A DNA stretch of 64,000 nucleotides from Thermoplasmata archaeon (GTDB lineage: Archaea; Thermoplasmatota; Thermoplasmata; UBA10834), in NCBI GenBank assembly GCA_035529455.1, contig DATKWQ010000052.1, forward strand, positions 5,966 through 69,965. Direction: 5' to 3'. The notes under the pieces were generated by a model. That model did not search any database and had not been told where the DNA came from. It worked only from the letters and a program-made list of their open reading frames with translations. Positions 1 to 58,960 of the stretch are shown piece by piece (positions within the stretch are counted from its first letter, which is position 1; each line of letters opens with the position of its first letter). The position numbers were made by a program, and so were the translations under genes.

Positions 1-181
1 GATGCTCATCGCATTGGATACAATAATTGAGTCTGACCTCCCCTGGCTCGGGGTACAGGTCCAGGACGTTCATCCTTGATTCACTCGGGTTGAACTTGCC
101 GACGTGTGAGGCTGAGCACACGAGGGCACACATCTGACAACCGGTGCATTTCTCAACCTCTGCTTTCAAGCCTTTGCTCAT
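1..181 (-). CDS. 4Fe-4S ferredoxin-type iron-sulfur protein, 5' part only (gene continues past the window start)
   Basis: Reverse-complement translation from the ATG at 179-181 gives MSKGLKAEVEKCTGCQMCALVCSASHVGKFNPSESRMNVLDLYPEPGEVRLNYCIQCDEH. It contains a CxxCxxCxxxC motif and the start of a second CxxC cluster. It is absent from the ORF track because it is truncated at the edge. Confidence 0.55.
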   Translation of the reverse strand, partial: MSKGLKAEVEKCTGCQMCALVCSASHVGKFNPSESRMNVLDLYPEPGEVRLNYCIQCDEH

Positions 182-483
182 TACAGATTTCCTCCCAAAT
201 CAAAGTCCTCGAACGGGGCTCCGCGCGCGGAGAAGATGGATGCAGCTCACGTCAGAGCCCATTCATCCCCGCCCGACCGGCCCCCTAAGAGCGAGGATAT
301 GAACGGCAAAGCCGTATTAGTCATTGTCGGTTTTTCACTCAGATGCCAGTGTTTCAGATTATCCTTCGAAAACCGCCCCAGAATACGGGAAATCGATATG
401 CTCGGCCGAGCCTATCGGGTGGGGCGGCTCGCACTGGCGCAATTCAAATAGCGACGGCAACATATGCTCCGACGGGACACGGC

Positions 484-768
484 ATGAAGGACATCTTCTC
501 ACTCAGGAAAAGGAGGGCGGAACGGTCTAGGCCCGAGGCTCCTGCGAAAATCGAAGCCCCGGCCTACCGCGAGAGTGAGGAAGCGTTCGAGTACAGCGGA
601 CCGCGTCGGGGACAAGCAGTTGACGACGCTTTGCAGGCGGAGGACAGGAATGTCCTGCTCAAGGCGAACTTGAAGCCGCTCCCGCGATGTCCTGAGTGCG
701 CTACCGCCGTCGGTGATGGACAGAGGGAATGTCATCACTGCGGCCGAGGGTTGAGGAAGATGCCATGA
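484..768 (+). CDS. small hypothetical protein with a C-terminal zinc-ribbon (CPEC...CHHC)
   Basis: Internal ATG of ORF 343..768 (MKDIFSLRKRRAE...). Two CxxC pairs lie at the C-terminus. No homology recognised. Confidence 0.3.
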   Translation: MKDIFSLRKRRAERSRPEAPAKIEAPAYRESEEAFEYSGPRRGQAVDDALQAEDRNVLLKANLKPLPRCPECATAVGDGQRECHHCGRGLRKMP

Positions 769-820
769 CCGCTGACCAGAATGAGCGGATCGTCCTTTCC
801 TGGCCGGTGAGGGGACAGTT

Positions 821-1576
821 TTGATACCCGAAGGCGCTAGAGTCATGCTCATGGACGAACGCGATGGTAAGTTCATGTTCGTCGCTGAGCGTAAGATGGT
901 CGAGGTGCGGAGACTTGGAGTAGTAGACGGCTCCGCAGTATGTGACGCGTCATACGGGGACAGCATCTCAATAGGCGGCCGGCGGCTGCTGATCGTCAGA
1001 CCATCGATGATGGACATCATAGGGACGATCGAGAGGAAGGCCCAGGTCATCTCGCCCAAGGACGGCTTCGCTATGCCACACTACCTCGACATCTCCTGCG
1101 GGAGCAGGGTCATCGAGGGCGGCGTGGGGTCTGGCGCACTCACAATCGTGTTGCTCAAGTCGGTCGCTCCCGCGGGCCGCGTATACTCGTACGACCTCAG
1201 GGACGACCACGCCTCAGTGGCGAGGAGGAACATTGCTAGGGCGGGGCTTGAGGACTGCTGGGAGCTGAAGATAGGAGACATATGCACAGCGTCGCTTGAG
1301 GAGGACGTGGACGCCGTCGTGTTGGACATGCCCGACCCCTGGAACGCCGTCGGGAACGTCATCCGAGCACTCAGACATGGCGGGCATCTCTGCTGCTACG
1401 TTCCGAACGCGAACCAGCTGGAGACAGCGGTGAGGGCGATGCGGGATTCTGGTTTCCGGGAGTTGTTCTTGGTGGAGAACCTCCAGCGAGAGATGATTGT
1501 ACACGATGGCGGCGTGAGGCCCAGCTCCGAGATGGCCGGTCACACAGGATACCTTGCCTTCGGCAGGAAACTGTGA
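821..1576 (+). CDS. trmI: tRNA (adenine57/58-N1)-methyltransferase TrmI (Gcd14 family)
   Basis: SAM-MTase fold with a GGVGSGALT motif and the overall TrmI/Gcd14 pattern. Position 821 is a TTG start; an ATG at 845 is an alternative. Confidence 0.8.
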   Translation: MIPEGARVMLMDERDGKFMFVAERKMVEVRRLGVVDGSAVCDASYGDSISIGGRRLLIVRPSMMDIIGTIERKAQVISPKDGFAMPHYLDISCGSRVIEGGVGSGALTIVLLKSVAPAGRVYSYDLRDDHASVARRNIARAGLEDCWELKIGDICTASLEEDVDAVVLDMPDPWNAVGNVIRALRHGGHLCCYVPNANQLETAVRAMRDSGFRELFLVENLQREMIVHDGGVRPSSEMAGHTGYLAFGRKL

Positions 1577-9783: not shown

Positions 9784-10242
9784 CTATTCCTCGAACAGCC
9801 AGCCCTCGTCGGGCTTCTGATATTTGTGCAGCTCGTAATCGTTGAAGAACAGGCTTATCTCTCTCCGCGCACTCTCGGATGAGTCGGAGCCATGGACCAC
9901 GTTCCTGCCGGTCACCTGCGCGAGGTCGCCTCGGATGGTTCCAGGCATCGCGTCCTGTGGGTTCGTCTTGCCCATCATGGACCTGACGACAGCGACCGCA
10001 TTCTCGCCTTCGAGAACCATGCAGACGGACGGGCCTGAGGTGATGTATGCGAGGAGCGGTTCGAAGAATGGCTTATCCCTATGCTCCTCGTAGTGACGCT
10101 CCGCGAGCTCCTTCGGGATGCGCATGATCTTCAGAGCCGCCAGCTTGAAACCGCGCCGTTCGAACCGGGAGACTATCTCCCCGACGAGAGCCCTCTGGAC
10201 GCCGTCAGGCTTGACCATGACGAACGTGCGCTCCATCATCAC
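9784..10242 (-). CDS. ndk: nucleoside diphosphate kinase
   Basis: [14 protein letters not shown]...NVVHGSDS contains the NDK active-site His motif. 152 aa. Confidence 0.95.
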
Positions 10243-10832: not shown

Positions 10833-11204
10833 CTACTTCTTCAGAGCCTTCAGCTTTCCGGCGAGCTCTTCAAGCGCCGGCTTTCCCTTTGCCGCATCAA
10901 CGACCGCCACTGCGGCCGTGGGCTTCTCGAGACCGCATGCGTTCCCCAATTCGGCCTTCGCGGGTACATAGGCGTACGGCACTGCCTTCTCCTCACACAA
11001 CGCGGGGATGTGCATCAGTATCTCGGGTGGTGAGACGTCCTCCGCCATGACGACGAACACGGCCTCGCCACGCTCGACGAGTTTGGTGACCTCATTTGTG
11101 CCCTTCTTCACGCTTCCGCCATCTCTTGCCAGCTCAACGATGTCGTAGGCCTTGTCGACGAGTTCCTTCGGCATCTCGAACTTAACGAATATCGGCTTTG
11201 CCAT
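10833..11204 (-). CDS. rpl7ae: 50S ribosomal protein L7Ae (kink-turn binding protein)
   Basis: 123 aa with the L7Ae/L30e fold (KKGTNEVTKLVERGEA..VVMAEDVSP.EI). First gene of the L7Ae-S28e-L24e-ndk-infB cluster. Confidence 0.95.
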   Translation of the reverse strand: MAKPIFVKFEMPKELVDKAYDIVELARDGGSVKKGTNEVTKLVERGEAVFVVMAEDVSPPEILMHIPALCEEKAVPYAYVPAKAELGNACGLEKPTAAVAVVDAAKGKPALEELAGKLKALKK

Positions 11205-11506
11205 ATCGATACCTCCTTCAGGTGCTCACGCACCATCATCATTCACGGGCTCCTTCGATTCAAAAGAGCAAATGGCAGTAGATGGTCGTTGTATAAAAGG
11301 GTTGCTGAGCACGGCGCGCGCTACATGCATCCGCCTGGGAGGCATGTGATGGTGGTGTATTGAAACTAACGCCTCCGCAGCATTGGATTGAATATCTCGT
11401 CCAGGGAGTCGCCGTTCAGGTAGAACGCCATGATCAGAAGTACTGTGCATGCGCCAGGCTGCGAGAAAGTATATCTTGTGCCGCATTGCTCACCTTCTTG
11501 GTGCAC

Positions 11507-13417
11507 ATGACCAAGAATGTCGTCCGCTTCCAACCTTCGGGCAGCAAGTCGGCCTGCAATGAAGGTGCTTCCATACTTGAACTCGCTCGGGACGCGGGCG
11601 TGTCAATCGAATCGATATGCGGTGGCACGGGAAAATGCGGCAAGTGCAAGGTTGCGCTGGTGGCCGGGGCGGACCTGCTTTCGCCCATGAACGACAACGA
11701 GCGCAGGACATTGGACGAAGACGAGATCGACTCGGGGCTGCGGCTCGCGTGCCAGGCAAGTGTCGTTTCCGAGGGAAACATGACAGTTGACATCCCGGAG
11801 GGTAGCCAGAGAGGTCACCACAGGTTGCTTGCGGCAGGCATCGAACCAGACATAGTACTCATGCCGGCGATGACCAAGATACTCCTGAAGATCCCACCGG
11901 CCACGTTGACCGACATAAGGGCAGATGACGACAGATTGCTGGACATACTGAACGCCGAGGCGGCCGTCACGGCGAACATCGCTCAGGGAGTCCACCAGCG
12001 GATGCCACATGCACTGCGCGAGAAGTCTTGGGAGGCTACCGCGACACTCTACATGAAGGAAGAGTTGATAGGACTCGATCCCGGCGATACGACCGGTGAT
12101 GTCCTGGGGGTGGCAGTGGATGTCGGGACAACGAAGGTTGTGGCGTATCTTCTCGACCTACTGTCTGGGAACACCATCGGGACCGAGAGCCACCCCAACC
12201 CTCAGATACCATTCGGCGAGGACGTGATGTCACGGATAACCTACGCCATGACTAACGAAGACGGCCTCGCGAGACTTCAGAAGGCAGTCATCGGAACAGT
12301 GAACTCACTGATACGACAGCTGTGCGAAAAGGTGGGGAAGAATCCCATCGACGTACTGGAACTAATCATGGTGGGTAACACCGCGATGCATCACATGTTC
12401 TTCGGCATACCACCAAATCACCTGGCATCGGCGCCATATGCTCCGGCAGTCAGGAAATCGATATCGGTCGACCCTAACCACCTTGGGATAGAGATCTATC
12501 CTTTCGGCAAGGTCGGGTCACTGCCCAACATAGCGGGCTTCGTCGGCGCTGACGCCGTGGCAGTCCTTCTGTCGTCCGGTCTGTATGACGACGATGAGAT
12601 TGGCATGATGATAGACATCGGCACGAACACGGAGATCATCGCGGGGAGCAGAGACCGGCTAATCAGCTGTTCGTGCGCGTCCGGACCGGCCTTCGAGGGA
12701 GCGCACATCAAGTACGGCATGAGAGCGGCGACGGGGGCCATCGAGCGCGTGTGGATGGACACGGCTGAGAAGGCGGTTCTCACCCGGACGGTGGACGACG
12801 CCCCACCGAGAGGCATATGTGGTTCCGGGATAGTCGACGCGGTCTCCGAGATGTTCAAGTGCGGAGTCATCTCGGCATCGGGGAAGATCAACTCTTCGTC
12901 CGATTGGGCGGAGCGAATAAGAGAAGGGTCAGATGGCAAGCTCGAATTCGTGCTCGCGGTAGACGAGAGCAACACGGACGACGCGAGGGACGTCGCGATC
13001 ACACAGAACGACGTGCAGGAAATACAGCTAGCCAAGGCTGCGATATTCACGGGTGTCTCGACACTGTTGAGGAGACTCGGGATAAGGTGCTCGGACCTCA
13101 AACGCGTCTACGCGGCGGGAGCGTTCGGGACATATGTCGACGCACCCGCGGCCATCACAATCGGCATGTATCCGGATATACCACCCGAGAGGATACGGTT
13201 CGTGGGGAACGCCGCTGGCTCCGGCGCCCGCATGGCGCTGAAATCTGTCGATGCACGCAAGCTCGCCGACGACCTCTCGCGGAAGGTCGAGTACGTCGAA
13301 CTGGCATCGGAGAAGGACTTCCAATCCGAATTCGCGAAGGCGATGTTCCTGCCACACAGAGAGCTGGACAGGTTCCCGACAGTCGCGCGCGCAATCGCCA
13401 ATTCGTTCGGCCGTTGA
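11507..13417 (+). CDS. RamA/RACo-like corrinoid reductive-activase homolog: N-terminal [2Fe-2S] plant-type ferredoxin domain fused to an ASKHA (DUF4445) ATPase domain
   Basis: Ferredoxin Cys pattern CGGTGKCGKC...C at the N-terminus, then ~550 aa of DUF4445-like sequence (DVGTTKV, DIGTNTE, GSGIVDA). Start trimmed to the ATG at 11507 (MTKNVVRFQP). Confidence 0.75.
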   Translation: MTKNVVRFQPSGSKSACNEGASILELARDAGVSIESICGGTGKCGKCKVALVAGADLLSPMNDNERRTLDEDEIDSGLRLACQASVVSEGNMTVDIPEGSQRGHHRLLAAGIEPDIVLMPAMTKILLKIPPATLTDIRADDDRLLDILNAEAAVTANIAQGVHQRMPHALREKSWEATATLYMKEELIGLDPGDTTGDVLGVAVDVGTTKVVAYLLDLLSGNTIGTESHPNPQIPFGEDVMSRITYAMTNEDGLARLQKAVIGTVNSLIRQLCEKVGKNPIDVLELIMVGNTAMHHMFFGIPPNHLASAPYAPAVRKSISVDPNHLGIEIYPFGKVGSLPNIAGFVGADAVAVLLSSGLYDDDEIGMMIDIGTNTEIIAGSRDRLISCSCASGPAFEGAHIKYGMRAATGAIERVWMDTAEKAVLTRTVDDAPPRGICGSGIVDAVSEMFKCGVISASGKINSSSDWAERIREGSDGKLEFVLAVDESNTDDARDVAITQNDVQEIQLAKAAIFTGVSTLLRRLGIRCSDLKRVYAAGAFGTYVDAPAAITIGMYPDIPPERIRFVGNAAGSGARMALKSVDARKLADDLSRKVEYVELASEKDFQSEFAKAMFLPHRELDRFPTVARAIANSFGR

Positions 13418-13487
13418 TGCGACCGACTATCGAACAACGCGCTACAGGGGGCCTGTCATTTCGAATTTTATGCACCCTATTGGAAAG

Positions 13488-13496
13488 TTTTAAAAA
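13488..13496 (+). promoter_or_regulatory. TATA-like element (TTTTAAAAA) upstream of the saccharopine-dehydrogenase-family gene
   Basis: AT-rich element ~100 bp upstream of the start codon. Confidence 0.3.
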
Positions 13497-13599
13497 CCCT
13501 TTCGAAGGAACCAGCGAAGTTTAAGTAACGACCCTGCCATCAGGGTATCGCCGAGGTTCTGACGCTGTGCGCCGGAACCCGGGGGCTAATGTGAACGAG

Positions 13600-14808
13600 A
13601 TGAAGGGTATTGTTATAGGTGTTGGAGCTGTAGGTTCCGTCATCGCCGATGTCCTTGCGAACTCCGAGGAGTTCGACGAGGTGGTTCTGGCGGACATAGA
13701 CATTGAGAAAGCGGAAAGGATGAAGAAGAGGATCTCCAAGGACAAAGTGTCAACGATGAGGATAGACGCATCGGACACGAAGGGCATGGCCCAAGCGTTC
13801 AAAGGGGTGGACCTCGTCCTGAACGGTGTCATCCCGCGCTTCAACTTCAACATAATGGATGCGTGCCTTATGGCGAAGGCGAGCTACGCAGACATGGCCA
13901 GCGACATATTCCTCTCCAAGGAGAAGCCCGGAGAGATCGTCAAGGAGCCGCCGGTGCAGTACCAGGCACGCAAGTACGATGAGGAGTACAAGAAGGCCGG
14001 GATCGTCGGCATGCTCGGCATGGGCTGCGACCCTGGAGTAGTCAATGTCTTCGCCAGGATGGGCGCGGATCACATGGACAGGGTCAAGAACTTGCTGGTC
14101 AGGGACGGCGACAACGGCTCCGTTGAGGGCTATGATTTCGCGCCGATGTGGTCCCCAGAAACGCTGATAGAGGAAGTCCTTATGCCGCCGATGATCTACA
14201 AAGACAACCATTACCGGAAGGTCGAGCCGTTCAGCGGCAAGGAGGAGTTCGAGTTCCCTGGACCCGTGGGGAAGCTGCCAGTCTACAACGTCGACCACGA
14301 GGAGCAGGAAACGCTTCCGAGATACATCGGTGAGGTCCTCGGCAAGGGCTGTGACTACTGTGACTTCAAGATACACTTGGGCGACGACTATGTCGACGCG
14401 ATCAAGATGATGGGCATGATTGGCCTCGACAATTCCGAGAAGATCAATGTGAAGGGCGTGATGGTGGCTCCGAGAGATGTTGTCACCGCATGCCTGCCCG
14501 ATCCCGCCACGATCGGCGACAGGGCGAAGGGCGACCTCGCCCACGGGACGATCACCACAGGTGTGAAGGACGGTAAGGAAGTGGGGTACTACATCTACAC
14601 GTCCATGAACCACCAGGACTGCTGGAACAAGTACGAGCACAGCGCTACCGCATACACAGTCGGTGTGCCGATCGCGATAGGCGCGATACTGTTCGCTCAG
14701 GGGAAGATAACGCAGAAAGGAGTGTTCCCGCCGGAGATGCTCGATCCGAAGCCGTTCGTGGACATGCTGCCCAAGTACGGCATGAACTGCATCGAGAAGA
14801 AGCTCTGA
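13600..14808 (+). CDS. saccharopine dehydrogenase-family NAD(P)-dependent oxidoreductase
   Basis: Rossmann GxGxxG (IGVGAVGS) at the N-terminus and a saccharopine-dehydrogenase/homospermidine-synthase-like architecture. Start trimmed to MKGIVIGVG. Confidence 0.75.
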   Translation: MKGIVIGVGAVGSVIADVLANSEEFDEVVLADIDIEKAERMKKRISKDKVSTMRIDASDTKGMAQAFKGVDLVLNGVIPRFNFNIMDACLMAKASYADMASDIFLSKEKPGEIVKEPPVQYQARKYDEEYKKAGIVGMLGMGCDPGVVNVFARMGADHMDRVKNLLVRDGDNGSVEGYDFAPMWSPETLIEEVLMPPMIYKDNHYRKVEPFSGKEEFEFPGPVGKLPVYNVDHEEQETLPRYIGEVLGKGCDYCDFKIHLGDDYVDAIKMMGMIGLDNSEKINVKGVMVAPRDVVTACLPDPATIGDRAKGDLAHGTITTGVKDGKEVGYYIYTSMNHQDCWNKYEHSATAYTVGVPIAIGAILFAQGKITQKGVFPPEMLDPKPFVDMLPKYGMNCIEKKL

Positions 14809-14907
14809 GCATCCGAGCGCTGGCCTCGAGAAACCCCTTCATTTCACCTTTTCCACAGAGTGTGCCCTGCAATCAGGTTTATTACGGTTCCCCCATACGG
14901 GAAACCG

Positions 14908-16119
14908 ATGGCTGAGGGCGACCGACGAATCCGCAGGTTCTATCTGTTCAGGGCGCTCACGTCGTTCGCTCTCTGGATGCCCTTCTGGACACTCTGGGCG
15001 TATGAGAACCTGGACAGCGTCTTCCTGATCACGGTTGTGGACGCTGCATTCTGGATGACGATGATCGGGTTCCAGATACCGGCGGGGTTGCTTGGGGACA
15101 AGTACGGCAGAAAGGCGATGCTGTTCTTAGGGGAGATACTGTTCTCCGTGGGCGTCCTGACCTTCGGCCTCAGCACGGAGTTCTGGCAGTACATCGCCTC
15201 CAACTTCGTCTGGGCGCTCGGGGTGTGCTTTGTGGTGAGCGGGGACACGCCGTTCATGTACGACACGCTCCTGGAACTCAAGCGGCCGAACGAGTTCACC
15301 GTGATAATGATCAACGCCACAGTGGTGGCGTACTTGATGAACGCAGTGGCGTGTGTGGTGGGAGGCTATCTGGTCCATACCACTGGCCGCCTGGACCTGC
15401 CACTGCTGATTGCGCCTGCGATAGCAATCATGGGCACGATGACAGTGTTCACGTTGAAGGAGCCAAAGGTCAACAGGACCAGCGTAAGCTCTTTCAGGTC
15501 TCACTTCGGAGTAGGCCTCAGGCAGGTGCTCAACTCGAGGGCGATAGTCATACTCATACTGTTCCAGATAGTCATCGAGGTGGGCGTCTACGTCATGATG
15601 ATATTCAGGTCGATATACATGAACGAGGACCTCTCCCTGGACCATCTTCAGATCGGCCTCCTGTTCTGCAGCTTCCTGATAGTCGGCGCGATCATCATCG
15701 GCTTCGCCCGCAGGGTTGGGGACATCCTCGGCGAGAAGAGGGCGCTGTTGTTCCTGTACTTGGCGGTCTTCTTCTCGTTCGTCGTGGTCTTCGTCGTCAG
15801 GTCGCCTATAGCCATCGTGACGCAGTACCTGATCTACGTCGTCGCTGGCGTCCAGGGACCCATCATATTCGGATACATCAACAAAAGAGTGGATTCCGAG
15901 CACAGGTCGACTATCATCTCCATAGCGACTTTCATATTCACGATAGTACTGGTGCTCGTTGAGGTCGGAGCCGGGTTCATGGCCTCCGCGTGGGGGCTGA
16001 TAGAGAGCCTGTTCGTACTGACGCTGTGCACTGCCCCGATCGCGTTGATACTGATCGTCCTGTGGAACCGCGAAGTCGACCGGGCAGAATCATCCGTCGA
16101 AAATGTCCTTGCAGAGTAG
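14908..16119 (+). CDS. MFS transporter
   Basis: About 12 predicted TM helices and a GDKYGRK MFS signature between TM2 and TM3. Confidence 0.85.
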   Translation: MAEGDRRIRRFYLFRALTSFALWMPFWTLWAYENLDSVFLITVVDAAFWMTMIGFQIPAGLLGDKYGRKAMLFLGEILFSVGVLTFGLSTEFWQYIASNFVWALGVCFVVSGDTPFMYDTLLELKRPNEFTVIMINATVVAYLMNAVACVVGGYLVHTTGRLDLPLLIAPAIAIMGTMTVFTLKEPKVNRTSVSSFRSHFGVGLRQVLNSRAIVILILFQIVIEVGVYVMMIFRSIYMNEDLSLDHLQIGLLFCSFLIVGAIIIGFARRVGDILGEKRALLFLYLAVFFSFVVVFVVRSPIAIVTQYLIYVVAGVQGPIIFGYINKRVDSEHRSTIISIATFIFTIVLVLVEVGAGFMASAWGLIESLFVLTLCTAPIALILIVLWNREVDRAESSVENVLAE

Positions 16120-16190
16120 CCGAGTCCGCGCCTCACAAATAGAAAAAGGGGGGGAGGCTATCAGACCGGTAAGAGTGTGCATTCTAGATA

Positions 16191-16208
16191 AATTTTATCA
16201 TTTTTGAT
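16191..16208 (+). terminator. T-rich tract (AATTTTATCATTTTTGAT) in the convergent MFS/ppsA intergenic region
   Basis: Oligo-T runs ~70 bp downstream of the MFS stop. A matching oligo-T run lies on the other strand (16137-16155) for ppsA. Confidence 0.3.
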
Positions 16209-16256
16209 AACGGCGTTTTGCGGCCAGCCTCTTCGTGTGCAATGTCGAGGGCGACG

Positions 16257-18695
16257 TCACTTGATGCCGAGTTTCTTCTCAGCCTCTGCCACCAGCAGTC
16301 TGGTCGGGATGACCCGGTCCGGGTTCAACGACAGGCTGTCGATTCCGAGGCCGACCAGGAACTCAGTGTATTCTGGGAAGTCGGACGGTGCCTGACCACA
16401 TATCCCGATCTTGCGTCCCCTCGCCTTCGCAACCTTGATCACGCGCGCGATGAGCTCCTTGACCGCGGGGTTCCTCTCGTCGTAGAGATGGGACACGAGT
16501 TCGGAGTCCCTGTCAAGCCCGAGTGTGAGCTGTGTGAGATCGTTGGAGCCGATAGAGAAACCGTCGAACACATCGGCGAATTCGTCCGCGAGAATCACAT
16601 TGCTCGGTATCTCGCACATCACGTATATTTCGAGGTCGTTCTCCCCCTGCTTCAACCCGTGACTGGCCATGACCTCGATGACCTTTCTGCCCTCCTCCGG
16701 TGTCCTGCAGAATGGCACCATCACCTTCACGTTCGTGAGGCCTTTGAGTGACCTCACCCTCTTCAAGGCCTGGCACTCCAGTGCGAACGCCGGCCTGAAC
16801 TTCTCGTCGTAGTACCGCGATGCGCCCCGCCATCCGATCATCGGATTGAACTCCACTGGCTCGTACAGCTTGCCTCCAAGCAGGTTCGCGTACTCGTTAG
16901 TCTTGAAATCGGATAGTCTCACGACGACATCGTTGGGATAGAATGTTGCGGCGATCTTCCCAACGCCCCAAGCGAGCTTGTCAAGGAAGAAGTCCACCTT
17001 GTTGTCGTACCCCTGGGTCTTCGCCTCGATGGCCGACACCACCTCTGCGATGGCCGGTTCGGTCTTGGCACGTTCCTTGAGCTTGTCGAACTCGACGAGT
17101 GCGAGAGGATGGATGCCAATGTGAGACGCGATGATGATCTCCAGACGGGCCAATCCGACGCCGTCACACGGCGTCTGCCCCTGAGTGAAGACATGCTCTG
17201 GCACAGCCACGTTCATCATCACCTTGGTCTTCGTCTTCGGCATCACACTTATGTCCGTCTTGTCGACTCTGAACTTGAGCTTGCCCTCGTAGACGTTGCC
17301 TACGCCCTCCGATGTGTCCACAGTCACCATCTGCCCGTCGCTGAGCACGCTCGTGCCGTTGCCTGTCCCGATTATGCAGGGGATGCCCAGCTCACGGGAG
17401 ACTATCGCCGCATGGCATGTCCTGCCTCCACGGTCTGTGACGATTGCCGATGCGATCCTCATGATCGGCTCCCAGTCCGGGTCGGTCTTGTCTGTCACGA
17501 GCACCTCGCCCTTCCTGAAATCCGATATCTCGAATGCGCTCTCGAGCACGTTGACCGTGCCAGCGCCTATCTTGCTGCCGACGGCCTCTCCACTGATGAG
17601 GGTTTTGCTCCGCTCCTCGAGCACGTAGGCCTCCAGCACTCCACCGACCTTGGCCGCGTGGACCGTCTCAGGCCGTGCCTGCACCACGTACAGCTCGCCC
17701 GTGACGCCGTCCTTGGCCCATTCGATGTCCATCGGTTTCCGATAGTGTTCCTCTATCATCACGGCCCACTTCGCGAGCGTGACTATCTCATCGTCATCCA
17801 GGACGAACCTCTGGCGGTCACGTTCTGGCACCTCCAGGTCGACCATGCCATGCCCTTTGGTCGCGTAGACGAGCTTGTGCTGTTTGCTGCCCAGCTTCTT
17901 CTCGATTATCGGGTCCTTGAACTTGCCCAATGCCGGTTTGAATACGTAGAATTGGTCCGGATTGACCGCTCCCTGCACTATCATTTCGCCAAGGCCCCAC
18001 GAGCCGGTGATGTACACCACCTTGTCGAACCCGCTCTCGGTGTCCAAAGTGAACATCACGCCGGAGCAAGCGAGGTCGCTTCTGACCATCCGCTGGACTC
18101 CCACGGACAGGGCGTTGCTCAGCTGATCGAACCCTCTGTGGGCCCTGTAAGCGATGGCGCGGTCGGTGAACAGACTGGCGAAACACTGTCGGATGGCCTT
18201 CAGGATGGCACTCTCACCGCTCACGTTCAATATCGTCTCGTGCTGGCCGGCGAATGATGCGCCGTCGAGGTCCTCGGAGGTCGCGCTGGACCGGATGGCC
18301 ACGCTGGGATTATTGATCCCCAGCCTGCGGCCGAGCTCCCAGTAGCCGTACTTGATCTCCCGCTCCAGCTCCGCGGGGAACGAGGCGTCGAGAAACGCGC
18401 GTCGTATCTTCTTCCCCCGTTCACCGACGTCCCCAGGATTGTCAGAGTCTACATCGCTGAGCGTCGACAAGATCGCCTCGTCGAGGCCTGCATTCTCAAC
18501 GAACCATCTGAATGCCTTGGTGGTGACCGCGAACCCCTCAGGTACGCGGATACCTTTGGAGGTGAGGTGACGGAGCATCTCGCCCAACGAAGAATTCTTG
18601 CCTCCGACCTTGGCGATGTCCTTGAGGCCTATCTGATCCAACCATAGCAGATGCTCATTGGTTCCGTTGCGTGGTTTGTCCGGCTCATCGAGCAT
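16257..18695 (-). CDS. ppsA: phosphoenolpyruvate synthase (PEP synthase/water dikinase)
   Basis: Has the PEP-utilising domains, the phosphohistidine region (GGRTCHAAIVSRE) and a C-terminal PEP-binding TIM barrel. Start trimmed to MLDEPDKPRN. Confidence 0.95.
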   Translation of the reverse strand: MLDEPDKPRNGTNEHLLWLDQIGLKDIAKVGGKNSSLGEMLRHLTSKGIRVPEGFAVTTKAFRWFVENAGLDEAILSTLSDVDSDNPGDVGERGKKIRRAFLDASFPAELEREIKYGYWELGRRLGINNPSVAIRSSATSEDLDGASFAGQHETILNVSGESAILKAIRQCFASLFTDRAIAYRAHRGFDQLSNALSVGVQRMVRSDLACSGVMFTLDTESGFDKVVYITGSWGLGEMIVQGAVNPDQFYVFKPALGKFKDPIIEKKLGSKQHKLVYATKGHGMVDLEVPERDRQRFVLDDDEIVTLAKWAVMIEEHYRKPMDIEWAKDGVTGELYVVQARPETVHAAKVGGVLEAYVLEERSKTLISGEAVGSKIGAGTVNVLESAFEISDFRKGEVLVTDKTDPDWEPIMRIASAIVTDRGGRTCHAAIVSRELGIPCIIGTGNGTSVLSDGQMVTVDTSEGVGNVYEGKLKFRVDKTDISVMPKTKTKVMMNVAVPEHVFTQGQTPCDGVGLARLEIIIASHIGIHPLALVEFDKLKERAKTEPAIAEVVSAIEAKTQGYDNKVDFFLDKLAWGVGKIAATFYPNDVVVRLSDFKTNEYANLLGGKLYEPVEFNPMIGWRGASRYYDEKFRPAFALECQALKRVRSLKGLTNVKVMVPFCRTPEEGRKVIEVMASHGLKQGENDLEIYVMCEIPSNVILADEFADVFDGFSIGSNDLTQLTLGLDRDSELVSHLYDERNPAVKELIARVIKVAKARGRKIGICGQAPSDFPEYTEFLVGLGIDSLSLNPDRVIPTRLLVAEAEKKLGIK

Positions 18696-30696: not shown

Positions 30697-31262
30697 AGAA
30701 AGCTCAAACGGTACCGGCGAACTGCACGGCGTGTCGGTTGAGCGGGACGCGCACCAATGTCGTTCCTGGAAATGGGCCGTCGAGATCGAAGATATTGTTC
30801 ATAGGGGAGGCGCCTGGAAGAGACGAGGACTTGAGAGGGGAGCCTTTCGTTGGAAGCGCAGGGAAGACTCTGAACCAAGCTCTCGCAGACCTTGGGGTAT
30901 CCCGCGAAGACGTCTATGTAACGAACATAGTCAAGTGCAGACCTCCAGGAAACAGACGACCTGCACGAGACGAGATAGACGCGTGCGTTGGATACCTCTG
31001 TGCCGAGGTCCATCGGGCCGGGCCTTCCGTGATATGTCTCCTGGGCCAGACCGTCGCTCGCGAGCTGCTCGGGCACAATGGCAAGATGTCGGACATCGTG
31101 GGAGAAGTCGTGGATGCCAAAATCTGCGGGTCCGACGTGAAGTGCGTGGTTGCATACCACCCAGCGGCGTGCCTGTACCGTCGGGCAAACTTCGACTCGT
31201 TTCGCGAGTCCATTGCGATGGGACTCAAGCTCGCGGGCATCGAAGGGGGCCGGCCGCAATGA
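30693..31262 (+). CDS. uracil-DNA glycosylase, family 4
   Basis: GEAPG.DED motif (GEAPGRDEDLRGEPFVGSAG), Cys ligands for the 4Fe-4S cluster, and a HPAA-like motif (YHPAA). Confidence 0.9.
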   Translation: MKKAQTVPANCTACRLSGTRTNVVPGNGPSRSKILFIGEAPGRDEDLRGEPFVGSAGKTLNQALADLGVSREDVYVTNIVKCRPPGNRRPARDEIDACVGYLCAEVHRAGPSVICLLGQTVARELLGHNGKMSDIVGEVVDAKICGSDVKCVVAYHPAACLYRRANFDSFRESIAMGLKLAGIEGGRPQ

Positions 31263-33133
31263 GAGACTGGCGAGTCCTGTTGCCTGTAACATTCTCGCTT
31301 CTGGTGCTTTTGACTTCAACCCCTCACGTCATGGCGGACGTCGAGGATGAAGGCGCAGCTCAGTTGGAGAGCTGGACGTTCATGATATACATGGCCGCTG
31401 ACGTGACGGACACGCTTCCTTGGGAAGCGGACATAAACGAGATGGAGGCGGCAGATCAGGCGGAGAATGCGAACATCATAGTGCTTGTGGACCCGCCAGG
31501 CATGGCGAACACCATGCTGTTGAAGATAGAGCATGACGACAATCATTTCGACCCAGAGATAGTCTCAACCACCATCGACGACCTGGGTGAGGTGATACCC
31601 GGTGGGGGAGAGGTCAACACAGGCTCCCCAGCGGTCCTGAGGGACTTCATATTGTTCTCCGCGACGGAATACCCCGCTGACCGCCTCGTATTGGTCCTAT
31701 GGGGACACGGAGCGGGATGGAGAGGTCTGTGTCCCGATGGCACGGACCTGCTGACACTGCCAGAGTTGGGGGCGGCCCTGGCGATGGCGGAGGCGACGCT
31801 CGACCGACGACTTGACATGCTTGTTCTGGACGTCTGCAATGGAGCAACCATGGAGCTCGCGTATGAGATATCGGAGCATGCCGACTTCCTCGTCGGCAGC
31901 GAACTCAACGTGCCGGCGGAAGGGTTGCCCTATGCGGATGTGTTCAACGCATTCTCTGAGGATCCTTGGCAATCGACGAACGCTTTCGGCGAGGCGATAG
32001 TCGACTCGTATGTCGAATGGGCGGAATACGGTTCATCCCACGCGACCGTTGCATGCCTCCTTGACCTCTCCAGAGTGGACGATACTGTGGAAGCTCTGGA
32101 CTCGATGTCGGAGCTGGGGTTGATATTCAACCGGCTCTACCACTCGGCGATGACGGCCGCTGTCCATTCCTCTGAGCATTGCGAGGACGAATGGTCCGTG
32201 GACTTTGGCGCCCTGTGCGGCGAGCTTTGCGCGGAAGACCTTCCAATTGAGGTCAAGGTCGCCTCAATGGATGCTGCAAGAGAGTACCTCCTCGCTGTCA
32301 AGCACTACGCGGAAACGAACACCGATGAGCTGGATGGCGCCACGACCACCGGGTTATCACTCTATTGCCCGTCGAGCGTCTCCGATACTGGCTACCTTGA
32401 GCTCCGCATATCCCAGACACTGTGGACGAATCTCTCGTTCAGGCTTCATGAAGACATCGCCCTGCAGGCCCAGGGCCCCGGCCCTGAGTTGACGTTAGGG
32501 GATTCCTCGGTCGGTGGCGAGAACATTCTAGATTTCGCGACACTGACATGGAACCCGGATGCAGAATGGAACTACACCAGCTACATGGTAAACGTCTTTC
32601 GCATCGAACCAAACGGATTAGTGGCATGCCAGACGATACTGGCTGTGAACCCCGTAATCCGCATCATGGATGTCATCGGCGATCTCTGGATATCCGCTTC
32701 GGGGTGCATCGGCGGCGAAGCGTACTCCAACCACCTGCGTCAGTGCACCCTATCAAGGCTCGTGACGGTGGAAGTGATTGTCAGCAGCCTGCCCGAGACT
32801 TACGACGGAGACATCGGAGTCATGATCAGCTCAGACATCAATGATTTCATGATTTTCAGATGTGAAGACAATGTCTGCACCGTTCTGTTCACAGCTCCGG
32901 ACTGGGCGAATATCGGAGGGATAGTCACATTGCGACTTATCGACCTCACAAACAGGAACATTCTGTCAGAACAAAGAACGCTTGTTTCTGGGGAGGACAT
33001 GGTCGTGACTTTGAACGTCCACATGACGACTGCAGAGACCATCGAATCCGAGATACTCCTCGGATTCGTCGCAATGATAACCATTCTCTGCGTGGCGGCC
33101 GTCGTCTACGTCAACCTGCTGCGGAGGAGATGA
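31259..33133 (+). CDS. clostripain-like cysteine peptidase (C11 family), secreted with C-terminal TM anchor
   Basis: Signal peptide, C11 block WTFMIYMAAD, a catalytic His in VLWGHGAGW and a catalytic Cys in VLDVCNGATME. A C-terminal hydrophobic helix precedes RRR. The start overlaps the UDG stop (ATGA). Confidence 0.75.
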   Translation: MRDWRVLLPVTFSLLVLLTSTPHVMADVEDEGAAQLESWTFMIYMAADVTDTLPWEADINEMEAADQAENANIIVLVDPPGMANTMLLKIEHDDNHFDPEIVSTTIDDLGEVIPGGGEVNTGSPAVLRDFILFSATEYPADRLVLVLWGHGAGWRGLCPDGTDLLTLPELGAALAMAEATLDRRLDMLVLDVCNGATMELAYEISEHADFLVGSELNVPAEGLPYADVFNAFSEDPWQSTNAFGEAIVDSYVEWAEYGSSHATVACLLDLSRVDDTVEALDSMSELGLIFNRLYHSAMTAAVHSSEHCEDEWSVDFGALCGELCAEDLPIEVKVASMDAAREYLLAVKHYAETNTDELDGATTTGLSLYCPSSVSDTGYLELRISQTLWTNLSFRLHEDIALQAQGPGPELTLGDSSVGGENILDFATLTWNPDAEWNYTSYMVNVFRIEPNGLVACQTILAVNPVIRIMDVIGDLWISASGCIGGEAYSNHLRQCTLSRLVTVEVIVSSLPETYDGDIGVMISSDINDFMIFRCEDNVCTVLFTAPDWANIGGIVTLRLIDLTNRNILSEQRTLVSGEDMVVTLNVHMTTAETIESEILLGFVAMITILCVAAVVYVNLLRRR

Positions 33134-50595: not shown

Positions 50596-51456
50596 TCACT
50601 TCTGCAGCATCGACTTCCACTTGACCGCGACGACTTCTCGGATGAACCTCGCTGCCAGCATGGACGTGTTTCCATTGTCACATGGCGGGCAGACCTCGAC
50701 CACATCGAAACCGATGAGCCTGTCACCAAGCCTGTTGATTATATACTTGACATCGAAGGTGGTCAGCCCAAAAGGCTCCGGCGTCCCCGTTCCCGGAGCA
50801 TAGGCGGGGTCGATCCCGTCGATATCGAGGGATAGGTACACCGGCTGGTTCCTCAGCTTGGACATCATCTCCTCGAAGACCTGCTTGCACCCGCGTTCGT
50901 GGATAGTCAGGGAATCGGCATACAGCGCCTCCTCAGGGCGTTCATCAGCGGACATTGACCGCACGCCAAAGGCGAATACGTTCCCCTTTCCCACGACATC
51001 CTCAATGCGCTTGTGTGCGCACGCGTGACTGTTTCTCAGTCCTTGATATTCATCGTTGAAATCGAGGTGAGCATCGATTATGACCGCAGATATCCCACTC
51101 CCGAATGCCTTGACAACGGGCGGGGAGATGGAATGCTCTCCACCGATGGCAATCGGGAATTTCCCTGAAGACACGATGCGTTTGGCCTCTTCTTCTATCG
51201 AGGCGACCATGTCATCCACTGACCCCTCCTCGTGGAGGTCTCCCATGTCATGGAATGGGACATCCCTGAGATCTACGCCGTGTTCGAACAGGTCAGGCTC
51301 GAAATTGATGGAAGCTTCCCGAATGGCCGTCGGGGCGAACCTGGTCCCGCTCCTGAATGTGGTTGTCCTGTCGAACGGAACACCGAAGGCGACAAACCTA
51401 GCATCATCAAAATTTGAGCGTGCATCCGCGAAGCTGAGCATGCCCCTCGCAGGCAT
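50596..51456 (-). CDS. speB: agmatinase (arginase/ureohydrolase family)
   Basis: Mn-binding blocks GGEHS, DAHLD and SLDIDGIDP. Confidence 0.9.
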   Translation of the reverse strand: MPARGMLSFADARSNFDDARFVAFGVPFDRTTTFRSGTRFAPTAIREASINFEPDLFEHGVDLRDVPFHDMGDLHEEGSVDDMVASIEEEAKRIVSSGKFPIAIGGEHSISPPVVKAFGSGISAVIIDAHLDFNDEYQGLRNSHACAHKRIEDVVGKGNVFAFGVRSMSADERPEEALYADSLTIHERGCKQVFEEMMSKLRNQPVYLSLDIDGIDPAYAPGTGTPEPFGLTTFDVKYIINRLGDRLIGFDVVEVCPPCDNGNTSMLAARFIREVVAVKWKSMLQK

Positions 51457-51459
51457 CGG

Positions 51460-51846
51460 TCACACCCGAGTGATCTTCTTCCTGCCCATGGCGATCAAGT
51501 ACTGGATGCTCTCTCCCGGGGTGAGGGAGTCCTTCAAGTCGTCGGGTATGGGCACCTGGAATATCTCGTAGGTGTCTAGGTCCATTAGCTGGACCTCTGA
51601 TCCAACGATCGTGACTATCTGAGCCTGTCTCTTGTCGATGAGCGGAACCTGGACTTTGTGTTTGACGGGATAGACGACTGAGCGCTTGCCACCGTCGAAT
51701 ATCCCAACCGCCTCGATCCGGGCTTTAGCTTCCCCGTGCTTCCCAGGCTTGGAGGTGGATATGCTAGTAATCTTGCATGGTTCGTCATCGATGTTGATGT
51801 AGCGTCCTTCCTTCAGAGTCCTGACTTCAGCTTGCTCCCATGCCAT
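51460..51846 (-). CDS. eif5a: translation initiation factor 5A (aIF5A), hypusine site present
   Basis: STSKPGKHGEAK is the hypusine loop. SH3-like and OB domains. Start trimmed to MAWEQ. Confidence 0.9.
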   Translation of the reverse strand: MAWEQAEVRTLKEGRYINIDDEPCKITSISTSKPGKHGEAKARIEAVGIFDGGKRSVVYPVKHKVQVPLIDKRQAQIVTIVGSEVQLMDLDTYEIFQVPIPDDLKDSLTPGESIQYLIAMGRKKITRV

Positions 51847-51891
51847 GAGTGTCACTTCCGGTGACGGTAACCGAGGGGGGGTTAGAAATAG

Positions 51892-54167: not shown

Positions 54168-54268
54168 CTCCATATCTCGAGTATGATTGTGGCCAACCGC
54201 CCATGAATGGGAGGCCTAGGCGACATTTATATAGAGCAGAAGGCGTCGGTTTCGCCAAGTGGTTTGAA

Positions 54269-58805: not shown

Positions 58806-58960
58806 GTACCCAGCCCGGTATTGAGAATATGTACTATTGAGCTTTTGCCTATGGTTTCCATAGTAAGAAATATGTAGACTCCAGCGCATGAGACCACTGC
58901 GACAACGACTGTGAGAACGCAATTCGCTGACGCAACAGGAACGGTCAATTCTGAACTCTG

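What the first reader, a model, noticed from the sequence alone, without database searches (positions are those of the whole stretch)
11507..16119. RamA/RACo-like ferredoxin-ASKHA corrinoid activase without an adjacent methyltransferase, next to a saccharopine-dehydrogenase-family gene and an MFS transporter
The 636-aa protein has a plant-type [2Fe-2S] ferredoxin (CGGTGKCGKC) fused to a DUF4445 ASKHA ATPase. This is the architecture of RamA (methanogen methylamine-methyltransferase activation) and of acetogen RACo. Those enzymes ATP-dependently reduce Co(II) corrinoid proteins. No MtaB/MtmB/MttB-type methyltransferase or corrinoid protein is in this 64-kb window. The immediate neighbours instead are an NAD(P) saccharopine-dehydrogenase-like enzyme and an MFS transporter, all on the same strand. 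It is unclear whether this marks a methylotrophic or methyl-corrinoid metabolism encoded elsewhere, or a new substrate system such as amine or quaternary-amine handling. Its placement right after the ribosomal cluster is unusual.
Basis: partly seen in the sequence, partly recalled or inferred. Interest (0 to 1): 0.5.

Follow-up and report, generated by a model that had tools for sequence, protein, structure and literature searches.

The report
Orphan corrinoid activase in Thermoplasmata archaeon
This archaeal gene encodes a known type of ATP-driven enzyme that re-reduces oxidised vitamin-B12 carrier proteins; it sits apart from its target genes in a gene order shared by its whole lineage, so it is an ordinary family member and not a new system.

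Summary
Window 11507-13417 (+) encodes a 636-aa protein with Fer2, RACo_linker, Raco_middle and RACo_C_ter domains. It aligns end to end with the Carboxydothermus RACo crystal structure (3ZYY, E 3e-129). It has the RACo architecture, not the RamA one, and scores below the curated AcsV and RamA cut-offs.

No corrinoid protein or corrinoid methyltransferase was found in the 64-kb window, in 10 kb beyond it, or in about 20 kb around ten related Thermoplasmata loci.

The RACo, SDH-like and MFS order is kept in all relatives. So is the whole 21-kb block of unrelated housekeeping genes around it, so adjacency carries no specific signal. Each of the three genes has its own conserved TATA-like element.

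Outside this clade, 38 of 70 RACo loci have MtrH, B12-binding, URO-D, MTTB or pterin methyltransferase genes within 7 kb. Only one has a distant SDH-family gene and none an MFS gene.

MAGs carrying the syntenic ortholog belong to order UBA10834 (Ca. Gimiplasmatales). Published analyses report ACS/CODH, a folate Wood-Ljungdahl branch and MttB/MttC genes there.

Best reading: a stand-alone activase acting in trans on corrinoid proteins encoded elsewhere. I could not check the source genome for those targets. It is a new member of a known kind, of low interest.

The parts
11460..11475 (+). Promoter-like element of the activase gene. A purine-rich BRE-like stretch plus the TATA-like TATATC (11470-11475) ends 31 nt before ATG 11507, which implies a very short leader.
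   Evidence: The sequence is. The motif GCGAGAAAGTATATC or a close variant lies at the same distance before the ATG in all 11 Thermoplasmata loci compared. This includes L007, L010 and L012, where the upstream neighbour differs. Function as a promoter is inferred, not shown.
11507..13417 (+). RACo-family reductive activase of corrinoid proteins, 636 aa. ATG 11507 is the start. The public 685-aa gene call from TTG 11360 is over-extended.
   Evidence: Four Pfam domains. End-to-end alignment to RACo 3ZYY at 436 bits, E 3e-129, residues 5-626 against 5-630, and to RACo in the CoFeSP complex 4C1N. Orthologs start at the equivalent Met.
11531..11764 (+). N-terminal [2Fe-2S] ferredoxin domain (aa 9-86). 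The cluster cysteines are C38, C44, C47 and C82.
   Evidence: Pfam Fer2 at E 7e-11. The four Cys are invariant across 14 orthologs.
11846..12589 (+). RACo linker (aa 114-196) and RACo middle domain (aa 200-361).
   Evidence: Pfam PF17650 at E 2.8e-14 and PF17651 at E 9e-56.
12596..13384 (+). C-terminal ASKHA ATPase domain (aa 364-626). It contains DIGTNTE (aa 370-376) and the CSCASGPAFEG loop (aa 388-398). DVGTTK (aa 205-210) lies in the middle domain.
   Evidence: Pfam RACo_C_ter at E 2.1e-94 over the full profile, positions 1-260 of 261. These motifs are invariant in orthologs. Ser398 of the Carboxydothermus enzyme, which ligates cobalt, aligns to Ala391, with Ser392 next to it.
13459..13528 (+). 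Regulatory region of the SDH-like gene; this is context, not part of the activase. Two TTTCGAA palindromes (13459-13506) flank a TATA-like TTTTAAAAA. An invariant TATA-like AGTTTAAGTAA follows at 13518-13528, about 72 nt before ATG 13600.
   Evidence: The palindrome pair occurs once in the window, against 0 in 100 shuffles. The A-TTA-ATAA columns are invariant in 8 loci.
13600..14808 (+). Saccharopine-dehydrogenase-family NAD(P) oxidoreductase, 402 aa. It is a neighbour and probably functionally unrelated to the activase.
   Evidence: Pfam Sacchrp_dh_NADP and Sacchrp_dh_C. NCBIfam carboxynorspermidine synthase at 211 bits against an 800-bit cut-off. Nearest solved structures are 4RL6 and 4INA, deposited as saccharopine dehydrogenase, and 8DEB, carboxyspermidine dehydrogenase.
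14876..14884 (+). TATA-like GGTTTATTA about 28 nt before the MFS ATG. This suggests a leaderless, separately started transcript.
   Evidence: The sequence is. A similar element lies at the same distance in the relatives.
14908..16119 (+). MFS transporter, 403 aa, substrate unknown. It is a neighbour and its close homologs are confined to this clade.
   Evidence: Pfam MFS_1. Only 187 homologs at E<=0.001; none of the 120 listed has a functional name, and every organism name given is Thermoplasmata-type.

Best explanation
The gene encodes a RACo-family ATP-dependent reductive activase.

Proposed mechanism, by analogy with characterised homologs:
1. The N-terminal [2Fe-2S] domain takes an electron from a cellular donor.
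2. The middle and ASKHA domains dock onto a corrinoid protein whose cobalt has been accidentally oxidised to Co(II).
3. ATP binding or hydrolysis makes the uphill transfer to Co(I) possible, restoring methyl-transfer activity.

Genomic reading:
- In this Thermoplasmata lineage (order UBA10834, Ca. Gimiplasmatales, or a close relative) the gene stands alone with its own promoter.
- It acts in trans on corrinoid proteins encoded elsewhere in the genome.
- The most likely targets are the CoFeSP of ACS/CODH, MttC/MtbC-type proteins of MttB-superfamily methyltransferases, or both.
- The SDH-like and MFS genes downstream are inherited neighbours, not partners.

What is shown and what is inferred:
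- Shown: domain architecture, full-length homology to a solved RACo, conservation of cluster ligands and ATPase motifs, lack of partner genes nearby, and block synteny.
- Inferred: the enzymatic activity, the identity of the targets, and separate transcription.
For: Family identity:
- Four RACo Pfam domains.
- Alignment to 3ZYY and 4C1N over the whole length.
- Invariant C38, C44, C47, C82, DVGTTK and DIGTNTE in 14 orthologs of 62-81 % identity, which indicates purifying selection.

Context of the family elsewhere:
- 38 of 70 non-Thermoplasmata loci have MtrH (23), a B12-binding protein (22), URO-D (17), MTTB (8) or a pterin methyltransferase (4) within 7 kb.

The local order is inherited:
- The 21-kb block PurL...L7Ae | RACo-SDH-MFS | PEPS-GT4-M20-MarC-EamA-HisK is collinear even where RACo is only 62 % identical.

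Separate transcription units:
- Separate conserved TATA-like elements precede RACo, SDH and MFS.

Targets in the lineage:
- The MAGs RBG_19FT_COMBO_56_21 (L014), RBG_16_62_10 (P0063) and UBA10834 (L013) carry the syntenic ortholog.
- These MAGs are placed in order UBA10834, which is reported to hold MttB-superfamily genes, MtbC/MttC corrinoid proteins, ACS/CODH and Wood-Ljungdahl genes (10.1101/2020.03.09.984617).
- Ca. Gimiplasmatales genus COMBO-56-21 is reported with acsA-E, the H4F methyl branch and mttB, mttC, mtmB and mtgB (PMC11264602).

Mechanism of homologs:
- PMC4934906 and PMC6739815.
Against: - I could not show that the source genome, or any complete genome of the clade, encodes a corrinoid protein. 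Only about 20-kb neighbourhoods were readable and they contain none.
- The literature statements concern relatives with RACo 62-69 % identical, and ACS/CODH is reported mainly for one genus.
- The score against the AcsV model (506 bits) matches that of methyltransferase-associated homologs (475-565 bits). Sequence therefore gives no hint of which target is used.
- The cobalt-ligating Ser398 is not conserved in position.
- RACo-SDH adjacency survives in every locus where both sides are visible, while the L7Ae-RACo junction is broken in three. A functional link therefore cannot be strictly excluded.
Confidence: 0.72

Rival explanations
1. RACo, the SDH-like dehydrogenase and the MFS transporter form one lineage-specific functional module. 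The transporter would import an amine, a methylated polyamine or an opine-like compound. The SDH-family enzyme would process it. A corrinoid methyltransferase encoded elsewhere, kept active by RACo, would demethylate it.
For: - Same strand, short gaps and the order RACo-SDH(-SDH paralog)-MFS in every Thermoplasmata locus seen.
- The junction with L7Ae is broken by insertions in L007, L010 and L012, while RACo-SDH is interrupted only by an SDH paralog in L008.
- The close homologs of both the SDH-like and MFS proteins are confined to the same clade.
- One Bathyarchaeia locus (L031) has a distant SDH-family gene (23 % identity) in a RACo-MTTB-B12-MtrH cluster.
Against: - The whole 21-kb block of unrelated genes is equally collinear.
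- Each gene has its own conserved promoter-like element. The paired TTTCGAA palindromes are found only before SDH.
- The nearest SDH homologs outside the clade sit with Peptidase_S58 and more SDH paralogs, without RACo or MFS.
- 69 of 70 non-Thermoplasmata RACo loci lack SDH and all 70 lack this MFS.
- No corrinoid or methyltransferase gene is in the block.
- No known SDH-family enzyme uses a corrinoid (general knowledge).
Confidence: 0.07
2. The activase serves a non-canonical target instead of CoFeSP or MttC-type proteins. Candidates are a corrinoid protein feeding a folate-independent methionine synthase, an HgcA-like protein, or an undescribed cobalamin enzyme.
For: - The ortholog is present in every Thermoplasmata genome of the clade retrieved, whereas acsA-E is reported mainly for one genus and mttB only for 'a handful' of MAGs.
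- It falls below the AcsV equivalog cut-off.
- The Ser398 position differs.
Against: - No such target was seen in any neighbourhood.
- The only characterised substrates of this family noted here are CoFeSP and methyltransferase corrinoid proteins.
- More than half of the homolog loci sit beside classic methyltransferase systems.
Confidence: 0.15
3. The gene is a relic without current function, left behind after loss of the corrinoid systems.
For: No partner gene was seen in about 75 kb of the source organism.
Against: - The reading frame is intact.
- About 180 positions of 636 are invariant across 14 orthologs, including all cluster ligands and ATPase motifs.
- The promoter motif is conserved.
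- More than 120 distinct orthologs of full length carry all four domains.
Confidence: 0.03

Closest known systems
RACo of Carboxydothermus hydrogenoformans (PDB 3ZYY; complex with CoFeSP 4C1N)
   Same: - Same four-domain order and nearly the same length (636 against 631 aa).
- Alignment over residues 5-626 at 436 bits.
- Same C-x5-C-x2-C...C cluster motif and the same ASKHA motifs.
   Different: - The gene is not near acs or cdh genes.
- The cobalt-ligating Ser398 aligns to Ala391, with Ser392 adjacent.
- The target protein is unknown.
AcsV (NCBIfam NF040756), the corrinoid activation/regeneration protein of acetogen acs clusters
   Same: It is the best-scoring NCBIfam model, matched over its full length (model positions 2-632 of 632).
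   Different: - The score of 505.7 bits is below the 800-bit cut-off.
- Homologs next to methyltransferase or mcr genes score the same (475-565 bits). The match therefore reflects the family, not the AcsV role.
Activating enzyme (AE) of bacterial O-demethylases (Acetobacterium dehalogenans)
   Same: It is a monomeric [2Fe-2S] ATP-dependent activator of an MtaC-like corrinoid protein. The ATP-dependent rise of the Co(II)/Co(I) potential from about -530 to -250 mV is the mechanism I assume here (PMC6739815). Homologs of the window protein often sit next to URO-D, B12-binding and MtrH genes.
   Different: No such genes are near the window gene. I did not compare the AE sequence directly.
RamA (TIGR04270), activase of methanogen methylamine methyltransferases
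   Same: The ASKHA part is homologous (aa 201-608 match model positions 2-409). The role is the same: ATP-dependent Co(II) to Co(I) reduction.
   Different: - The score is 142 bits against a 500-bit cut-off.
- RamA carries two [4Fe-4S] clusters instead of one [2Fe-2S].
- The window protein has no Cys-rich C-terminus.
Carboxy(nor)spermidine dehydrogenase / saccharopine dehydrogenase family (for the neighbouring gene)
   Same: Both Pfam domains are present. The nearest solved structures are 4RL6, 4INA, 8DEB and 8H4Z.
   Different: - It scores 211 bits against an 800-bit cut-off for carboxynorspermidine synthase.
- No carboxyspermidine decarboxylase gene was seen.
- The family is small (1231 hits) and has tandem paralogs in relatives.

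Membership tests
RACo family (COG3894; Pfam Fer2 + RACo_linker + Raco_middle + RACo_C_ter) | N-terminal [2Fe-2S] ferredoxin domain with four cluster cysteines | tested here: met
   Fer2 at E 7e-11. C38, C44, C47 and C82 are invariant in 14 orthologs.
RACo family (COG3894; Pfam Fer2 + RACo_linker + Raco_middle + RACo_C_ter) | Linker, middle domain and C-terminal ASKHA ATPase domain in this order, full length | tested here: met
   PF17650, PF17651 and PF14574 are all above their cut-offs. End-to-end alignment to 3ZYY at E 3e-129.
RACo family (COG3894; Pfam Fer2 + RACo_linker + Raco_middle + RACo_C_ter) | Serine that ligates Co(II) of the bound corrinoid (Ser398 in C. hydrogenoformans) | tested here: inconclusive
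   Ser398 aligns to Ala391, and Ser392 follows directly in CSCASGPAFEG. The same motif occurs in 36 of the homologs, and others have CAAGP or CATGP.
RACo family (COG3894; Pfam Fer2 + RACo_linker + Raco_middle + RACo_C_ter) | ATP-dependent reduction of a Co(II) corrinoid protein | not testable with these tools
   This needs a biochemical assay.
RACo family (COG3894; Pfam Fer2 + RACo_linker + Raco_middle + RACo_C_ter) | A corrinoid protein partner encoded in the same genome | not tested
   None was found in the window, in 10 kb beyond it, or in the related loci. The rest of the genome could not be read. The literature reports such genes in MAGs of the same order.
AcsV (NCBIfam NF040756) | Score at or above the curated cut-off of 800 bits | tested here: not met
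   505.7 bits. Ten other homologs score 475-565 bits.
AcsV (NCBIfam NF040756) | Location in an acs/cdh (ACS/CODH, CoFeSP) gene cluster | tested here: not met
   No CdhD/E, AcsC/D or ACS/CODH family was found in the window or in the related loci.
RamA (TIGR04270) | Score at or above 500 bits, with a C-terminal domain carrying two [4Fe-4S] clusters | tested here: not met
   141.9 bits, matching only model positions 2-409 of 534. The protein ends without a Cys motif. The RamA cluster type is taken from PMC6739815.
   No such Pfam hit. The C-terminal domain is RACo_C_ter over the whole profile.
Carboxynorspermidine synthase/dehydrogenase (NF043000), for the neighbour gene | Score at or above 800 bits | tested here: not met
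   210.9 bits. It can only be assigned to the broader saccharopine-dehydrogenase family.

The most novel reading that the evidence does not exclude
The clade-wide, single-locus RACo would be the general activase that published reconstructions of Ca. Gimiplasmatales methylotrophic acetogenesis lack. Its strictly kept adjacency to a clade-specific SDH-family dehydrogenase (often duplicated) and a clade-specific MFS transporter would mark an undescribed amine or opine-type substrate route. Methyl groups from that route would enter the folate Wood-Ljungdahl pathway through corrinoid proteins encoded elsewhere.
Probability: 0.06. Interest if true: 0.6.

Novelty: new member of a known kind. Interest (0 to 1): 0.2.

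Why it matters
- Published genome reconstructions of the UBA10834 / Ca. Gimiplasmatales archaea propose methylotrophy and acetogenesis through corrinoid proteins, but do not report a reductive activase in these MAGs.
- A conserved, apparently functional RACo ortholog at a fixed locus fills that gap. It modestly strengthens the case that these sediment archaea run oxygen-sensitive cobalamin methyl-transfer chemistry.
- Beyond this annotation point the gene is ordinary. Activases of this family are often encoded away from their targets, and nothing here points to new chemistry.
- The public 685-aa gene model should be shortened to 636 aa.

Tried and rejected
1. Exact-sequence look-up of the 636-aa protein failed because the public gene call starts at TTG 11360. 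The 685-aa version P0001 worked.
2. I looked for partner genes in the rest of the window, in 10 kb past its end, and by tblastn with 97 methyltransferase and corrinoid proteins against 378 kb of window plus Thermoplasmata loci. Nothing was found.
3. I could not scan whole genomes of the clade. I also held no Thermoplasmata corrinoid protein sequence that would surface clade members among the 120 listed hits of a protein search.
4. I tried to separate a CoFeSP-type from a methyltransferase-type activase by the NCBIfam AcsV score. All homologs score alike, so this does not discriminate.
5. I tried the same with the Ser398 loop motif. It varies without an obvious link to context.
6. The supplement of the Zinke preprint holds gene definitions only, not presence per MAG. 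The Gimiplasmatales description paper (10.1111/1462-2920.15349) is not held.
7. An Rfam search of 11000-16400 found only one sub-threshold snoRNA match, which is likely chance.
8. I rejected a BadF/HgdC-type activase because there is no such domain.
9. I rejected a recent island origin because GC content is even across the region, 0.57-0.58.


Full report
**What is there**

The window is archaeal, with even GC content of about 0.57. It matches ENA contig ERZ27256828 k141_3968123, where window position equals L001 position plus 1402.

The finding's coordinates hold three + strand genes.
- The first, 11507-13417, gives a 636-aa protein. Pfam finds Fer2 (aa 9-86), RACo_linker (114-196), Raco_middle (200-361) and RACo_C_ter (364-626, E 2.1e-94, full profile).
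- It aligns without large gaps to the crystal structure of the Carboxydothermus hydrogenoformans reductive activator RACo (3ZYY, 436 bits, E 3e-129, residues 5-626 against 5-630). It also aligns to RACo in its complex with CoFeSP (4C1N).
- The second gene has both saccharopine-dehydrogenase domains. The third is an MFS_1 transporter.

**Corrections of detail**

- ATG 11507 is the true start of the activase. Orthologs begin at the equivalent Met. A conserved BRE/TATA-like motif (GCGAGAAAGTATATC, TATATC at 11470-11475) ends 31 nt upstream of the ATG in all Thermoplasmata loci compared. The public 685-aa call from TTG 11360 (P0001) is over-extended.
- The SDH-like gene most likely starts at ATG 13600 (402 aa), because the upstream GTGs fall out of frame in distant relatives. 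The MFS gene most likely starts at ATG 14908.
- The cluster motif is C38-x5-C44-x2-C47...C82. The domain scores higher with the ISC-type ferredoxin model (45 bits) than with the plant-type model (20 bits).
- The architecture is that of RACo, not RamA. TIGR04270 matches only the ASKHA part at 142 bits against a 500-bit cut-off. The protein has no Cys-rich C-terminus. Corrinoid activators carry either one [2Fe-2S] cluster (AE, RACo) or two [4Fe-4S] clusters (RamA) (PMC6739815).

**Is a partner nearby?**

No.
- Pfam over all window ORFs of 90 aa or more, together with precomputed Pfam for the public contigs, shows no B12-binding, MTTB, MtaB, MtmB, MtrH, URO-D or CdhD/E family.
- The 10 kb beyond the window end hold geranylgeranyl reductase, UbiE, polyprenyl synthase, UbiA and Nuo/Fpo subunits.
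- tblastn with 97 MtrH, B12-binding, URO-D, MTTB and pterin-methyltransferase proteins found nothing in the window or in any Thermoplasmata locus, 378 kb in total.
- tRNA-Val is the only tRNA in the window, so there is no pylT.

**Relatives and gene order**

- The protein has thousands of homologs. The 120 best all have the four-domain architecture at 61-100 % identity, and every organism name given among them is Thermoplasmata, Methanobacteriota or Euryarchaeota.
- A scan of one genome per species gave ten Thermoplasmata loci at 62-81 % identity. Identity then jumps to 48 % or less in Bathyarchaeia, Methanomethylicia, Asgard archaea, Chloroflexota, Nitrospirota and others.
- In every Thermoplasmata locus where the flanks are visible the order is aIF5B-NDK-L24e-S28e-L7Ae, then divergently RACo-SDH(-SDH paralog)-MFS, then convergently PEP synthase.
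- The collinear block is much longer than the trio. It runs PurL, PurQ, riboflavin kinase, PIN, aIF2-gamma, S6e, aIF5B, NDK, L24e, S28e, L7Ae, RACo, SDH, MFS, PEP synthase, GT4, M20 peptidase, MarC, EamA, histidine kinase. All are in the same order in genomes whose RACo is only 62 % identical.
It reflects inherited order.
- Insertions separate L7Ae from RACo in three loci: a peptide-type ABC transporter in L007 and L010, and a GNAT-like gene in L012. A second SDH paralog is present in L008, L011, L014 and L017.

**Transcription signals**

Each of the three genes is preceded by its own conserved TATA-like element.
- RACo: at 11470-11475.
- SDH: AGTTTAAGTAA at 13518-13528, invariant in eight loci, preceded by a pair of TTTCGAA palindromes. 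That pair occurs once in the window and in none of 100 shuffles.
- MFS: GGTTTATTA at 14876-14884, about 28 nt before the ATG.

This argues for three transcription units, although it is inference from sequence only.

**What the family does elsewhere**

- Among 70 non-Thermoplasmata loci, 38 have at least one of these families within 7 kb of the RACo homolog: MtrH (23 loci), B12-binding corrinoid protein (22), URO-D/MtaA-like (17), MTTB (8), pterin methyltransferase (4). Pfam checked representatives of four of these clusters. The pterin methyltransferase cluster is labelled from its sequence only.
- Eight Methanomethylicia-type loci place the homolog directly after mcrC and an A2-like ABC ATPase.
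- Only one locus (L031) has a distant SDH-family gene nearby, and none has this MFS.
- Conversely, the SDH-like protein belongs to a small family of 1231 hits. Members at 59 % identity or more lie on the RACo-bearing Thermoplasmata contigs. The next group, at 45-48 %, sits with further SDH paralogs and a Peptidase_S58 gene, without RACo or MFS.
- The MFS has only clade-internal homologs without names.
- The nearest solved relatives of the SDH-like protein are 4RL6 and 4INA, deposited as saccharopine dehydrogenases, and carboxyspermidine dehydrogenase 8DEB. It scores far below the carboxynorspermidine synthase cut-off.
- Nothing links this enzyme family to corrinoids.

**Which targets?**

- The MAGs RBG_19FT_COMBO_56_21 (L014), RBG_16_62_10 (P0063) and UBA10834 (L013) all carry the syntenic ortholog. 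They are assigned to order UBA10834.
- For that order Zinke et al. report MttB-superfamily methyltransferases, MtbC/MttC corrinoid proteins, ACS/CODH and Wood-Ljungdahl genes, and no mcr (10.1101/2020.03.09.984617).
- For Ca. Gimiplasmatales (UBA10834), genus COMBO-56-21, a later study reports acsA-E, the folate methyl branch and mttB, mttC, mtmB and mtgB. It proposes methylotrophic acetogenesis and mentions a reductive activase only as a methanogen component (PMC11264602).
- The window organism is closest to the San Francisco Bay MAG 13_Jan_SF_Bin61 (RACo 81 %, aIF5B 93 %) and closer to MAG UBA10834 than to COMBO-56-21.
- The likely targets are therefore CoFeSP, MttC-type proteins, or both, encoded elsewhere.
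- Sequence gives no way to choose. The AcsV model scores the window protein at 506 bits, and ten other homologs, including ones beside methyltransferase or mcr genes, at 475-565 bits. All are below the 800-bit cut-off.
- The serine that ligates Co(II) in the Carboxydothermus complex (Ser398; PMC4934906) aligns to Ala391, with Ser392 next to it. This CSCASGPAFEG form is the commonest among the homologs, and the loop varies in others.

**Mechanism (inferred from homologs)**

1. The reduced [2Fe-2S] cluster, at about -330 to -340 mV in the characterised homologs, donates one electron to Co(II).
2. Binding of the activator and ATP shifts the Co(II)/Co(I) couple so that the transfer becomes feasible. 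In the O-demethylase system the shift is from about -530 to -250 mV.
3. One activation serves hundreds of methyl-transfer cycles.

**Limits**

I could not read the rest of the source genome or any complete clade genome. The presence of a target in this organism therefore rests on literature about relatives. Separate transcription and enzymatic activity are inferred.

**Verdict**

This is a correctly recognised RACo-family activase, stand-alone and with its own promoter, in a lineage-wide inherited gene order. The SDH-like and MFS neighbours are most likely unrelated. It is a new member of a known kind and of low interest. Its value is as an annotation that supplies the activase for the corrinoid metabolism proposed for these archaea.

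Noticed in passing
window 11360-11506: Public gene calls (P0001, 685 aa) start the activase at TTG 11360. Orthologs and a conserved TATA-like motif at 11470-11475 show the start is ATG 11507. The extension would run through the promoter.
   Followed up: yes
window 13459-13599: The leader and promoter region of the SDH-like gene holds three conserved features. Two TTTCGAA palindromes 41 nt apart flank a TATA-like TTTTAAAAA, a pair unique in the window (0 in 100 shuffles). A small hairpin at about 13554-13580 keeps 6 of 9 pairs through double changes in 8 loci. An invariant TGTGAA lies 3-4 nt before the ATG. None is in Rfam. It may be a regulator binding site plus a structured leader.
   Followed up: partly
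L008 8538-9629; L011 7312-8520; L014 7940-9196; L017 7593-8801: Some relatives carry a second, tandem SDH-family paralog between RACo and MFS. In the next most similar archaeal group (L087, L088) two to three SDH paralogs flank a Peptidase_S58 (DmpA-like aminopeptidase) gene. The family is small (1231 hits) and uncharacterised.
   Followed up: partly
L019, L032, L036, L045, L049, L052, L061, L065 (about 7 kb upstream of position 10001): In eight Methanomethylicia-type loci the RACo homolog sits directly downstream of mcrC and an ABC-ATPase (A2-like) gene, inside a conserved block of small methanogenesis-associated genes. Here a corrinoid activase is embedded in what looks like the MCR-activation cluster.
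   Followed up: no
L031 15189-16190: One Bathyarchaeia locus has a distant SDH-family gene (23 % identity to the window's) right after a RACo-MTTB-B12-binding-MtrH cluster. It is the only case among 70 loci and may be coincidence.
   Followed up: no
L007 5871-9833: In the complete MAG CP070748.1, three genes are inserted between L7Ae and RACo: an agmatine-deiminase-like gene, an FAD-linked-oxidase-like gene and a peptide-type ABC substrate-binding protein. These labels come from reading the translations, not from a family search. The record has runs of N (masked stretches) here.
   Followed up: no
window 50596-51855 (-): An agmatinase (Arginase family) gene lies directly next to aIF5A. The pairing links polyamine supply to hypusine or deoxyhypusine modification.
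   Followed up: no
window 57741-59791: A Ras/Roc/Arf-like small GTPase (276 aa, 58961-59791) lies next to a 354-415-aa protein with no Pfam hit on the opposite strand. Such eukaryote-like small GTPases are uncommon in Thermoplasmata.
   Followed up: no
window 30731-33133 and 54203-56320: Two large, probably secreted proteins: an 800-aa clostripain-family (Peptidase_C11) protein and a 705-aa protein with three PKD domains.
   Followed up: no
window 1-1402: The window extends 1402 bases past the end of the matching ENA contig (k141_3968123). Its far end matches a different ENA assembly (ERZ27256834 k141_152548), so the window comes from another, longer assembly of the same population.
   Followed up: partly
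window 15647-15702 (-): A sub-threshold Rfam match to C/D-box sRNA sR11 (20.9 bits against a 39-bit gathering score, E 1.3) lies inside the MFS gene on the opposite strand. It is probably chance.
   Followed up: no
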